DNA of 64,000 bases, from NCBI RefSeq assembly GCF_055900595.2, contig NZ_CM148325.1, one strand, 5' to 3'. A program made the translations under genes and the position numbers. Positions 4,982-6,874 of the stretch are shown here, piece after piece (within the stretch, counting starts at the first letter, position 1; each line of letters opens with the position of its first letter). The notes beneath the pieces were generated by a model. That model searched no databases. It worked only from the letters and a program-made list of their open reading frames with translations, and was not told the origin of the DNA.

Positions 4982-6874
4982 TTACATCACCAGACGGCGA
5001 ATGTCAGACAGCGTGTTGTTAATGATGGTAATGAAACGGGCACCATCAGCACCGTCGATCACGCGGTGGTCGAAGGAGAGAGAAATCGGCAGCATCAGAC
5101 GCGGCACGAACTCTTTACCATTCCACACCGGTTCCATCGCGGACTTGGAAACACCGAGGATAGCCACTTCCGGCGCGTTCACAATCGGCGCGAAGTGGGT
5201 AGTACCCAGGCCGCCGATGCTGGAAATGGTGAAGCAACCGCCCTGCATTTCGCCCGCAGTCAGCTTACCGTCACGCGCTTTCTTAGAAATGGTCATCAGT
5301 TCGCGAGACAGCTCGATGATGCCTTTCTTGTTGACGTCTTTGAATACCGGAACAACCAGACCGTTCGGGGTATCCACCGCCACACCGATGTTGATGTATT
5401 TCTTCAGGGTCAGACGCTGACCGTCTTCCGACAGAGAACTGTTGAAGCGAGGCATCTGCTCAAGTGCCGCAGCAACGGCTTTCATGATGAAGACAACTGG
5501 GGTTATCTTCACATCCAGCTTACGTTTCGCTGCTTCTTCGTTCTGCTGTTTACGGAACGCTTCCAGCTCAGTGATATCGGTTTTGTCGAAGTGAGTAACA
5601 TGCGGGATCATCACCCAGTTACGGCTCAGGTTCGCACCAGAGATTTTCTGGATGCGGCCCAGTTCCACTTCTTCGATTTCACCAAACTTGCTGAAGTCCA
5701 CCTTCGGCCACGGCAGCATGCCAGGGATACCGCCGCCAGTTGCCGCCGGAGCCGCTTCTGCACGTTTGATCGCTTCTTTCACGTAAGCCTGAACGTCTTC
5801 GCGCAGGATACGACCTTTACGGCCAGTGCCCTTCACTTTCGCCAGGTTAACGCCAAATTCGCGTGCCAGACGGCGGATCAGCGGAGTCGCGTGAACGTAA
5901 GCGTCGTTTTCAGCAAATTCAGATTTGCCTTCTGCTTTTGCAGCCGGTGCTGCTGCCGGAGCTTCAGCTTTTGCTGCCGGAGCCGGCGCTGCCGCTTCCT
6001 GTTTCGCAGGAGCTGCCGCAGGCGCTGCGCCTTCAACTTCGAAGATCATAATCAGCGAGCCAGTTTTCACTTTATCGCCAACGTTGACTTTCAGTTCCTT
6101 CACGACGCCTGCAAACGGAGCCGGAACTTCCATAGACGCTTTATCGCCTTCTACGGTGATCAGTGACTGTTCAGCGGCAACTTTGTCGCCCACTTTCACC
6201 ATCACTTCGGTCACTTCAACTTCGTCACCACCGATATCCGGAACGTTAACCTCTTTCACGCCAGCTGCTGGTGCAGGGGCCGCTGCCGGAGCCGCTTCCT
6301 GTTTAGCCGCCGGAGCTGCCGCGCCTGCTTCACCCGCGACTTCGAAGACCATAATCAGCGAGCCGGTAGACACTTTGTCACCCACGTTCACTTTGATCTC
6401 TTTCACGGTGCCTGCAAACGGAGCCGGAACTTCCATAGAAGCCTTGTCGCCTTCTACGGTGATCAGCGACTGTTCAGCTTCAACTTTGTCGCCCACTTTC
6501 ACCAGGATTTCGGTCACTTCGACTTCGTCGCTGCCGATATCCGGAACATTTACGTCTTTTGCCGCCGCAGCAGCGGGTGCTGCTGCCGGAGCTGCTTCTT
6601 TCTTCTCTTCTGCCTGAGCAGGTGCAGCGTCTGCTGCACCGTCGGCGGAATCGAAAATCATAATCAGTGCGCCGGTCTGGGTTTTATCGCCAACAGAGAC
6701 TTTGATCTCTTTAACGATACCCGCCTGCGGAGACGGAACTTCCATAGAGGCTTTGTCGCCTTCTACAGTGATCAGCGACTGTTCGGCTTCAACTTTGTCG
6801 CCCACTTTGACCAGGATCTCGGTGATTTCAACTTCATCAGCCCCGATGTCCGGTACTTTGATTTCGATAGCCAT
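4982..6874 (-). CDS. aceF: dihydrolipoamide acetyltransferase (E2 of pyruvate dehydrogenase), three lipoyl domains
   Basis: ORF track 630 aa; three near-identical lipoyl domains (…[13 protein letters not shown]…) separated by Ala/Pro-rich linkers, C-terminal catalytic domain with DHRVIDG. Confidence 0.95.

What the first reader, a model, noticed from the sequence alone, without database searches (positions are those of the whole stretch)
5930..6870. aceF: three tandem lipoyl-domain repeats (~300-bp period) with Ala/Pro linkers
Near-identical ~80-aa lipoyl domains are repeated three times at both protein and DNA level (approx. 6580-6870, 6270-6570, 5960-6260), giving long direct repeats within one gene. 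These are a known substrate for copy-number change by recombination and could be mistaken for a repeat array.
Basis: partly seen in the sequence, partly recalled or inferred. Interest (0 to 1): 0.2.

Follow-up and report, generated by a model that had tools for sequence, protein, structure and literature searches.

The report
Three lipoyl-domain repeats in aceF
The ~300-bp triple repeat is the long-known set of three lipoic-acid-carrying "swinging arm" domains at the start of the E. coli pyruvate dehydrogenase E2 gene (aceF); it is real and ordinary, although a few natural strains carry two domains, or possibly four.

Summary
Window 5930-6874 (minus strand) holds three in-frame tandem units of 309 and 303 nt. 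Each unit encodes a ~75-aa lipoyl domain (lipoyl-lysines K41, K144, K245) followed by a 26-45-aa Ala/Pro-rich linker.

"Near-identical" is too strong: the domain cores are 75-87% identical in protein and 76-85% in DNA.

The gene is aceF. It has a full-length equivalog match and aligns full-length with PDB 7b9k; its protein is identical to E. coli K-12 AceF. It sits in the pdhR-aceE-aceF-lpdA operon. It is not a non-coding repeat array.

The triplication predates the Escherichia/Salmonella split: lip1 orthologues are 93% identical in DNA, paralogues 74-77%.

- Of 5,423 complete E. coli genomes, 8 carry an in-frame 300-309-bp deletion that leaves two domains.
- Four genomes that look like one clone carry a 192-bp out-of-register deletion.
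- None carries an expansion.
- Four-domain alleles, the reciprocal duplication products, occur in draft assemblies and in one complete Salmonella genome.
- Junctions fall in the conserved core around the lipoyl-lysine or in the linkers.
- Assembly artefacts cannot be fully excluded.

This is textbook biology and the interest is low.

The parts
4982..6874 (-). aceF coding sequence (630 aa plus stop): dihydrolipoyllysine-residue acetyltransferase, the E2p subunit of the pyruvate dehydrogenase complex
   Evidence: ORF; Pfam domains; NCBIfam PRK11854 at 1101.5 bits against a cut-off of 722; aligned 1-630 with PDB 7b9k; 97-99.9% DNA identity to annotated aceF in 5,423 E. coli genomes
6647..6871 (-). 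Lipoyl domain 1 core (aa 2-76); lipoyl-lysine K41 codon at 6752-6754
   Evidence: DKA motif and coordinates; Pfam Biotin_lipoyl, 3 stretches,
6563..6646 (-). Linker 1 (aa 77-104), Ala/Pro/Glu/Lys-rich: [28 protein letters not shown]
   Evidence: short GC-rich direct-repeat families D2 and D3
6338..6562 (-). Lipoyl domain 2 core (aa 105-179); lipoyl-lysine K144 codon at 6443-6445
6260..6337 (-). Linker 2 (aa 180-205): [26 protein letters not shown]
6035..6259 (-). Lipoyl domain 3 core (aa 206-280); lipoyl-lysine K245 codon at 6140-6142; corresponds to NMR structures 1qjo and 2k7v
5927..6034 (-). Linker 3 (aa 281-316), Ala/Pro-rich. It contains a 12-nt x2 tandem repeat (6005-6028) and a 33-nt x2.1 repeat (5929-5998).
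   Evidence: TRF rows. The 12-bp deletion allele (AAPA lost, aa 283-286) is seen in strain 2017.20.01CC. A 7-aa longer linker is seen in P0019.
5789..5896 (-). Peripheral-subunit (E1/E3) binding domain, aa 327-362
   Evidence: Pfam E3_binding, E = 1.9e-16
4988..5680 (-). Acetyltransferase catalytic domain, aa 399-629, including the DHRVIDG active-site motif (aa 602-608)
   Evidence: Pfam 2-oxoacid_dh, E = 2.4e-80; motif read from the translation; PDB 4n72
6410..6475 (-). Most conserved segment of lip2 (aa 134-155, [22 protein letters not shown]). Together with its counterparts in lip1 (6734-6784) and lip3 (6107-6163), it is where most natural deletion and duplication junctions map.
   Evidence: Junction mapping
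6889..9552 (-). aceE (E1p), immediately upstream in the operon
   Evidence: TIGR00759 aceE equivalog at 1644.8 bits
3233..4657 (-). lpdA (E3), 474 aa from the second Met of the MMSTEIK sequence. The mechanical ORF extends further, to 4690.
   Evidence: TIGR01350 at 501 bits. RefSeq lpdA is 1,425 nt.
9713..10477 (-). pdhR, the GntR-family repressor of the operon, 254 aa. The mechanical ORF starts earlier, at a TTG (10510).
   Evidence: NF007001 PdhR equivalog at 495.5 bits, with profile positions 1-254 matching residues 12-265

Best explanation
The repeat is the N-terminal 'swinging arm' region of AceF, the E2p core subunit of the E. coli pyruvate dehydrogenase complex. An ancient in-frame triplication produced three ~75-residue lipoyl domains. 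Each presents one lysine (K41, K144, K245, in a conserved DKA turn) that is lipoylated after translation. The domains are strung together by flexible Ala/Pro-rich linkers of 26-45 residues and are followed by the E1/E3-binding domain and the acetyltransferase core domain. The lipoyl-lysine arms shuttle the acetyl group and the reducing equivalents between the E1p, E2p and E3 active sites. At the DNA level the domains appear as three direct repeats of 303 and 309 nt, 76-85% identical. Purifying selection on the protein keeps them similar; recent duplication does not. Short identical stretches in the conserved core and in the linkers occasionally support unequal recombination or replication slippage, which removes or adds exactly one unit in frame.
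For: Shown here:
- Three in-frame units spaced 309 and 303 nt (103 and 101 codons) apart.
- Three Biotin_lipoyl stretches plus E3_binding and 2-oxoacid_dh domains.
- The AceF equivalog model is met at 1101.5 bits against a cut-off of 722, and the neighbours are aceE, lpdA and pdhR.
- The protein aligns over 1-630 with the E. coli E2p chain of cryo-EM entry 7b9k at 1323 bits, and lip3 matches NMR entries 1qjo and 2k7v.
- The window allele differs from K-12 aceF at 47 of 1,893 nt. Forty-six of these are at third codon positions and none changes an amino acid, which indicates strong purifying selection.
- E. coli and Salmonella lip1 cores are 93% identical in DNA, against 74-77% for paralogues, so the triplication predates that split.
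- Copy-number change: 8 of 5,423 complete E. coli genomes have in-frame deletions of 300, 303, 306 or 309 bp that leave two domains. The junctions are lip2N/lip3C hybrids, a lip1N/lip2C hybrid, or linker-to-linker joins.
- The best-resolved junction (01_3327, 0 mismatches to its closest reference) lies in a 29-nt identical stretch encoding [10 protein letters not shown].
- Reciprocal four-domain alleles of 731 and 733 aa exist.
- Exact two-domain proteins are recorded on 454, 182 and 22 contigs.

From the literature:
[quoted passage not shown] It cites Stephens 1983 (PMID 6345153), Guest 1985 (PMID 3903169) and Allen 1989 (PMID 2509711).
- PMC5013485 states that one domain suffices in E. coli (citing Guest 1985) and that Serratia symbiotica lineages have lost one or two domains.

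The catalytic cycle itself is established knowledge and was not tested here.
Against: Nothing argues against the identification.

Points that temper the secondary claims:
- The repeats are only 76-85% identical, and their longest in-register exact runs are 19-51 nt depending on the allele. They are therefore a poor substrate for RecA-type homologous recombination, which fits the rarity of variants.
- No expansion was found in 5,423 complete E. coli genomes.
- The E. coli four-domain alleles whose contigs were looked up come from draft assemblies: SPAdes or MEGAHIT contigs for P0003 and draft WGS contigs for P0001.
- The same search returned clearly artefactual products at this locus: a 630-aa protein with permuted domain halves (P0040) and interspecies chimeras (P0002, P0025).
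- Two of the eight two-domain complete genomes (C2 and C4) have neighbouring accessions and may come from one study, which could point to a pipeline effect.
Confidence: 0.98

Rival explanations
1. The ~300-bp periodicity is a non-coding tandem repeat array (a minisatellite, a CRISPR-like array or a mobile-element relic), not part of a gene.
For: TRF and the direct-repeat finder both flag it as a 2.7-3-copy array with a 303-nt period.
Against: Unit lengths are exact multiples of three (303 and 309). The whole region lies inside one uninterrupted 630-codon ORF with curated full-length family matches. Differences between alleles are almost all at third codon positions, and none changes an amino acid. 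There are no unique spacers, and no RNA family was reported in this interval.
Confidence: 0.005
2. The repeats are similar because they are being actively homogenised by gene conversion (concerted evolution) or were duplicated recently, not because an old triplication is held by purifying selection.
For: Within-species lip2-lip3 core identity is 85% in E. coli and 88% in Salmonella. That is about as high as the cross-species orthologue identity for lip3 (85%) and close to that for lip2 (89%), which hints at occasional exchange between lip2 and lip3. Hybrid lip2/lip3 alleles exist.
Against: lip1 is clearly orthologous across the two genera: 93% against 74-77% for paralogues. Third-position identity between paralogues is only 55-69%. 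Each domain position keeps its own diagnostic residues in both genera, for example SPQAG in lip1 against APFAG in lip2 and lip3.
Confidence: 0.1
3. The long open reading frames on the opposite (+) strand (5925-6617, 230 aa; 4937-6166, 409 aa) are real overlapping genes, and the repeat belongs to them.
For: Both are open in the window and in K-12. The 5925-6617 frame changes only 2 amino acids for 22 nt differences between the window and K-12.
Against: Neither has a Pfam match even at E <= 0.1. Their products are low-complexity Ala/Gly/Ser/Thr or Arg/Phe-rich mirrors of the AceF codons. The apparent conservation of 5925-6617 is expected, because its third codon positions coincide with those of aceF (inference from frame geometry). 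The other antisense frame changes 30 amino acids for 32 nt differences. RefSeq annotates only aceF here.
Confidence: 0.01
4. The two- and four-domain aceF alleles found in other genomes are assembly artefacts: a de Bruijn-graph loop through the k-mers shared by neighbouring domains is skipped or traversed twice. On this view there is no true biological copy-number variation.
For: The shared exact runs (19-51 nt) are in the range of assembler k-mers. The four-domain E. coli alleles whose contigs were looked up sit on draft contigs, SPAdes or MEGAHIT for P0003 and draft WGS contigs for P0001. The same search returned obviously artefactual permuted and chimeric AceF sequences (P0040, P0002, P0025). 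No expansion is seen in 5,423 complete genomes. C2 and C4 have neighbouring accessions, which suggests one study.
Against: Eight finished chromosomes from several countries and hosts carry clean in-frame one-unit deletions with four different junction types. Separately assembled related isolates share the same allele: 01_3327 with 03_3013, and strains 439, 446, 447 and 463. Two junctions lie in linkers, with only 13-17 nt of identity. The exact 527-aa and 529-aa proteins recur on 454 and 182 contigs, including chromosomes longer than 5 Mb. A finished Salmonella chromosome carries four domains.
Confidence: 0.3

Closest known systems
E. coli K-12 AceF (E2p; RefSeq WP_000963518.1; PDB 7b9k, 1qjo, 2k7v, 4n72)
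   Same: The 630-aa protein sequence is identical (0 aa differences), with the same three lipoyl domains, linkers, PSBD and catalytic core, and the same pdhR-aceE-aceF-lpdA operon.
   Different: Only synonymous DNA differences: 47 of 1,893 nt, giving 97.5% identity. These slightly shift where the longest identical runs between repeats lie: 23, 19 and 30 nt here against 32, 26 and 23 nt in K-12.
Engineered E. coli E2p chains with one, two or up to nine lipoyl domains (Guest et al. 1985, PMID 3903169; Machado et al. 1992, PMID 1478460; both cited through PMC8421416, PMC5013485 and PMC8835933)
   Same: The natural two-domain alleles (Rb-50, C2, C4, VTB97379v, FDAARGOS_1283, DSM 103263, 01_3327) and the four-domain alleles (P0001, P0003) have the same kind of architecture as those constructs.
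   Different: The engineered versions were made in vitro. The ones found here occur in sequenced isolates, with junctions at short natural identities. The window itself has the standard three domains.
SucB (E2o of 2-oxoglutarate dehydrogenase) and other 2-oxoacid dehydrogenase E2 chains
   Same: The same modular plan of lipoyl domain(s), PSBD and a CAT-like acyltransferase core. The SucB models are hit at 325-350 bits.
   Different: Those scores are below the SucB cut-offs (379-449 bits). By established knowledge (not tested here) SucB has a single lipoyl domain and lies in the sdh-suc operon. The window protein meets the AceF-specific models instead.
Reduced AceF of Serratia symbiotica endosymbionts (PMC5013485)
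   Same: Natural loss of one or two lipoyl domains from a three-domain enterobacterial AceF.
   Different: That loss is fixed in lineages undergoing genome reduction. In E. coli the two-domain form is a rare polymorphism, seen in 8 of 5,423 complete genomes.

Membership tests
AceF / PDH-complex E2p, long form (NCBIfam PRK11854, TIGR01348) | Whole-protein score above the curated equivalog cut-off | tested here: met
   PRK11854 scores 1101.5 bits against a cut-off of 722, covering residues 1-630. TIGR01348 scores 1041.6 against 552.1.
AceF / PDH-complex E2p, long form (NCBIfam PRK11854, TIGR01348) | N-terminal lipoyl domain(s) with the lipoylatable lysine in a D-K-A turn | tested here: met
   Three Pfam Biotin_lipoyl stretches. 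DKA motifs with the lysine at K41, K144 and K245.
AceF / PDH-complex E2p, long form (NCBIfam PRK11854, TIGR01348) | Peripheral-subunit-binding domain between the lipoyl region and the core | tested here: met
   Pfam E3_binding at aa 327-362, E = 1.9e-16. PDB 4qoy, 8oqj and 9h1n match this segment.
AceF / PDH-complex E2p, long form (NCBIfam PRK11854, TIGR01348) | C-terminal CAT-like acyltransferase domain with the catalytic DHRxxDG histidine motif | tested here: met
   Pfam 2-oxoacid_dh at aa 399-629, E = 2.4e-80. DHRVIDG is present at aa 602-608 in the translation.
AceF / PDH-complex E2p, long form (NCBIfam PRK11854, TIGR01348) | Operon context with homodimeric-type E1p (aceE) upstream and E3 (lpdA) downstream | tested here: met
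   aceE equivalog at 1644.8 bits, lpdA at 501 bits and pdhR at 495.5 bits, all on the minus strand in that order.
AceF / PDH-complex E2p, long form (NCBIfam PRK11854, TIGR01348) | Actual lipoylation of the three lysines, and acetyltransferase activity | not testable with these tools
   Inferred from the protein being identical to K-12 AceF and aligning 1-630 with 7b9k, which has been characterised experimentally (PMC8421416).
Non-coding tandem repeat array (minisatellite or CRISPR-like) | Repeats lie outside coding sequence, or show no codon-phase constraint | tested here: not met
   The units are 101 and 103 codons long, inside one ORF. Of the 47 allele differences, 46 are at third codon positions and none changes an amino acid.
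Non-coding tandem repeat array (minisatellite or CRISPR-like) | Short, near-identical repeats separated by unique spacers (the CRISPR pattern) | tested here: not met
   The units are ~300 nt, 76-85% identical and contiguous. The 'spacers' are themselves repeated Ala/Pro-coding linkers.

The most novel reading that the evidence does not exclude
Lipoyl-domain number in AceF may be a genuine, recurrent natural polymorphism in wild E. coli and Salmonella, with two, three or four domains. It would be generated by unequal exchange at the ~20-50-nt identical core around the lipoyl-lysine codon and at the linker repeats. Two-domain alleles would persist in whole clones; the exact 527-aa and 529-aa proteins are seen on 454 and 182 contigs. 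That would mean the third domain is dispensable, or conditionally costly, in nature and not only in laboratory constructs.
Probability: 0.55. Interest if true: 0.25.

Novelty: already known. Interest (0 to 1): 0.12.

Why it matters
The finding itself matters little. The three repeating lipoyl domains of E. coli AceF were described when the gene was sequenced in 1983 and have been dissected genetically and structurally since.

Its practical value is as a caution. Repeat finders flag this coding repeat as an array, and short-read assemblers can mis-join it, as the permuted and chimeric AceF sequences in public data show.

The side result is modest. Rare natural two-domain alleles, and possible four-domain alleles, have junctions in the conserved lipoyl-lysine core. 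They offer a natural counterpart to the classic domain-number engineering experiments. If verified with reads, they could be used to ask whether three domains are selectively maintained in the wild.

Tried and rejected
1. Reading copy number from BLAST coverage and identity bands did not work. Every genome still showed at least 80% coverage, because pieces that re-use the same subject segment are joined. I replaced this with a flanking-anchor design. The two flanks lie 940 nt apart in a normal gene. With a join limit of 900 nt only deletions are joined. With a join limit of 1,050 nt, normal genes and deletions are joined and only expansions stay split.

2. Mapping deletion junctions against the window allele alone gave inflated or shifted overlap intervals, because the window is about 2.5% diverged from the parental alleles. 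I redid the mapping with five additional three-domain references. Several junctions still lack a close parent (8-32 mismatches) and are only approximate.

3. Using substitution patterns to dismiss the antisense ORF 5925-6617 was uninformative, because its wobble positions coincide with those of aceF. I relied instead on the absence of any family match and on the low-complexity product.

4. The homologue search listed only enterobacterial sequences among its best 120 hits. It could not provide a broad survey of domain number across taxa, so that point rests on the literature ('one to three' domains, PMC8421416).

5. A targeted literature search for the original domain-number papers found them only as references inside other papers. 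Those originals are not in the searchable library.

6. I considered and rejected readings as CRISPR, a minisatellite or a mobile element (see rival explanations).
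Full report
**1. The observation**

- The direct-repeat finder reports one family of three 300-nt copies at 5976-6275, 6279-6578 and 6588-6887. Their starts are spaced 303 and 309 nt apart, and the second and third copies are 78% and 67% identical to the first.
- Tandem Repeats Finder gives period 303, 2.7 copies, 79% matches and score 882 at 6039-6853. It also gives two small repeats in the last linker: 33 nt x2.1 at 5929-5998 and 12 nt x2 at 6005-6028.
- Self-identity of the first 960 nt of the gene peaks at offset 303, at 55.6%. In 200 codon shuffles the mean was 36.6% +/- 0.8% and the maximum 39.9%.

**2. Anatomy**

The repeat lies in a single 630-codon ORF on the minus strand, 4982-6874.

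| Element | Residues | Window coordinates |
|---|---|---|
| lip1 core | aa 2-76 | 6647-6871 |
| linker 1 | aa 77-104 | 6563-6646 |
| lip2 core | aa 105-179 | 6338-6562 |
| linker 2 | aa 180-205 | 6260-6337 |
| lip3 core | aa 206-280 | 6035-6259 |
| linker 3 | aa 281-316 | about 5927-6034 |

- Three DKA motifs place the lipoylatable lysines at K41, K144 and K245, which are 103 and 101 codons apart.
- The linkers are Ala/Pro-rich with some Glu, Lys and Gln.
- Core identity is 78.7% (lip1-lip2), 74.7% (lip1-lip3) and 86.7% (lip2-lip3) in protein, and 77.3%, 75.6% and 84.9% in DNA.
- Third-codon-position identity between cores is 55-69%, and the longest in-register exact runs are 23, 19 and 30 nt.

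"Near-identical" is therefore an overstatement. A structural paper on the native complex gives 73% identity for the three domains (PMC8421416).

**3. Identity of the gene**

- Pfam finds three Biotin_lipoyl stretches, an E3_binding domain (aa 327-362) and the 2-oxoacid_dh catalytic domain (aa 399-629).
- The NCBIfam AceF equivalog PRK11854 is met at 1101.5 bits against a cut-off of 722, over the full length. SucB and other E2 models fall below their cut-offs.
- The flanking genes are aceE upstream (6889-9552), lpdA downstream (3233-4657) and pdhR further upstream (9713-10477). All are on the minus strand and all meet equivalog models.
- The protein aligns over residues 1-630 with the E. coli E2p chain of PDB 7b9k. 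lip3 matches 1qjo and 2k7v, and the core matches 4n72.
- The DNA matches annotated aceF in 5,423 of 5,426 complete E. coli genomes. Identity is 97-98% for most and 99.9% for strain Z0117EC0005.
- Against K-12 there are 47 nucleotide differences. Forty-six are at third codon positions and none changes an amino acid.

**4. How it works**

This section rests on established knowledge and was not tested here. Each lipoyl domain carries a lipoyl-lysine at the tip of a beta-turn, and the flexible Ala/Pro linkers let the domains visit the three active sites in turn:
- E1p, where the lipoyl group is reductively acetylated;
- the E2p core, where the acetyl group is transferred to CoA;
- E3, where the lipoyl group is re-oxidised.

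[quoted passage not shown] It cites Stephens et al. 1983, Guest et al. 1985 and Allen et al. 1989. PMC5013485 restates that one domain suffices in E. coli, and reports that Serratia symbiotica lineages have lost one or two domains. Constructs with up to nine domains are cited as Machado et al. 1992.

**5. Age of the repeat**

I compared the window with a Salmonella aceF (CP075029).
- lip1 orthologues are 93% identical in DNA, against 74-77% for paralogues.
- lip2 orthologues are 89% identical.
- lip3 orthologues are 85% identical, while lip2-lip3 paralogues are 83-88% identical.

The triplication therefore predates the Escherichia/Salmonella split, and purifying selection accounts for the similarity. 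For lip2 and lip3 the margin is thin, so occasional exchange between them cannot be excluded.

**6.

Simple coverage statistics were uninformative. I therefore used two flanking anchors that lie 940 nt apart in a normal gene.

With a join limit of 900 nt, only 12 of 5,423 genomes joined the anchors.

| Strains | Deletion | Result |
|---|---|---|
| Rb-50, VTB97379v, C2, C4 | 303 bp | lip2N/lip3C hybrid domain, 529 aa |
| FDAARGOS_1283 | 300 bp | linker 1 joined to linker 2, lip2 lost |
| DSM 103263 | 306 bp | linker 1 joined to linker 2, lip2 lost |
| 01_3327, 03_3013 | 309 bp (sequence examined for 01_3327 only) | lip1N/lip2C hybrid domain, 527 aa |
| 439, 446, 447, 463 (apparently one clone; sequence examined for 463 only) | 192 bp, out of register | second 'VGDKV' hairpin of lip2 joined to the first of lip3 |

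- All sequenced variants keep the reading frame.
- With a join limit of 1,050 nt all 5,423 genomes joined, so none carries an expansion of about 110 bp or more.
- Junction mapping against the closest of six three-domain references places the crossovers in short identical stretches. The clearest are a 29-nt run encoding [10 protein letters not shown] for 01_3327 (0 mismatches to its reference) and a 13-nt linker repeat for DSM 103263.
- A smaller polymorphism is a 12-bp deletion (loss of AAPA) in the 12-nt tandem repeat of linker 3.

**7. Four-domain alleles**

The protein search unexpectedly ranked AceF proteins of 723-738 aa first. They have four lipoyl domains.
- P0003 carries an extra lip3N/lip2C hybrid domain and P0001 an extra lip2N/lip1C hybrid domain. 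These are the reciprocal products of the two deletion types, with junctions in the same core.
- The E. coli examples whose contigs were looked up come from draft assemblies: SPAdes or MEGAHIT contigs for P0003, and draft WGS contigs for P0001.
- The same list contains evident assembly artefacts: P0040 with permuted domain halves, and the interspecies chimeras P0002 and P0025.
- One finished Salmonella chromosome has four domains, and its third and fourth cores are 100% identical in DNA.
- Exact-sequence look-up finds the 527-aa, 529-aa and 530-aa two-domain proteins on 454, 182 and 22 contigs. The two-domain cluster has 305 distinct member sequences.

I conclude that two-domain alleles are probably real and heritable in some lineages. 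Four-domain alleles are plausible but unproven. Read-level validation is needed.

**8. Rivals**

- A non-coding array is excluded by the coding evidence.
- The long antisense ORFs (5925-6617 and 4937-6166) have no family match and are mirrors of a codon-biased gene.
- Ongoing homogenisation is not supported for lip1 and is only weakly suggested for lip2 and lip3.

**9. Verdict**

The feature is already known and textbook. Interest is low. The only added value is the catalogue of rare natural domain-number variants and the caution about how repeat finders and assemblers behave at this locus.

Noticed in passing
window 2823-3058 (within ORF 1302-3161, + strand): A second coding tandem repeat: 102-nt period, 2.3 copies, 83% matches. 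It encodes repeated ~34-aa Gln/Arg-rich units (…PEQRQAFREKVQNQQRPLSQQQRDSARQRIQSA…) at the C-terminus of a 619-aa protein that also has a His/Asp-rich stretch. The equivalent gene next to lpdA in other E. coli genomes is annotated 'DUF3300 domain-containing protein'.
   Followed up: partly
window 9555-9668 (+): Rfam tp2 sRNA match (103 bits against a gathering score of 50) in the pdhR-aceE intergenic region, on the strand opposite to the operon.
   Followed up: no
window 4982-6874: The window's aceF allele is unusual among E. coli. Only 12 of 5,424 genomes match at 99% or more, the best being dog isolate Z0117EC0005 at 99.9%. Most genomes are at 97-98%, yet the protein is identical to K-12 AceF. 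This suggests the window comes from an uncommon E. coli lineage.
   Followed up: partly
L001 3001-4701 (E. coli strain 463; the same 192-bp deletion size in strains 439, 446 and 447): An in-frame 192-bp out-of-register deletion joins aa 163 of lip2 to aa 228 of lip3 at the internally duplicated 'V(K/N)VGDKV' hairpins. The predicted product has a malformed composite domain that still carries two DKA motifs. Whether this domain folds is unknown.
   Followed up: partly
proteins P0040, P0002, P0025, P0023: Public assemblies contain AceF sequences with permuted domain halves (P0040, still 630 aa), or with an E. coli body fused to Citrobacter- or Klebsiella-like first domains. These are most likely short-read mis-joins through the k-mers shared between lipoyl domains.
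   Followed up: partly
proteins P0035 (680 aa) and P0032 (707 aa): These AceF variants have a duplicated peripheral-subunit-binding domain segment (…[44 protein letters not shown]… appears twice) rather than an extra lipoyl domain. They could be real or artefactual.
   Followed up: no
(E. coli genome collection): A few matches to aceE-aceF lie on records classed as plasmids (3-6 places). Three genomes lack aceF, and in one of them, the laboratory strain JCL301, only the last ~96 nt remain.
   Followed up: no
window 53747-53973 (-), 48839-48988 (+), 55730-55829 (+), 27251-27340 (-), 21535-21604 (-), 20942-21019 (-): Other Rfam matches above gathering score: SgrS, the leucine operon leader, a TPP riboswitch, PssrA, STnc40 and naRNA4. 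These look like ordinary E. coli chromosomal features for this region.
   Followed up: no
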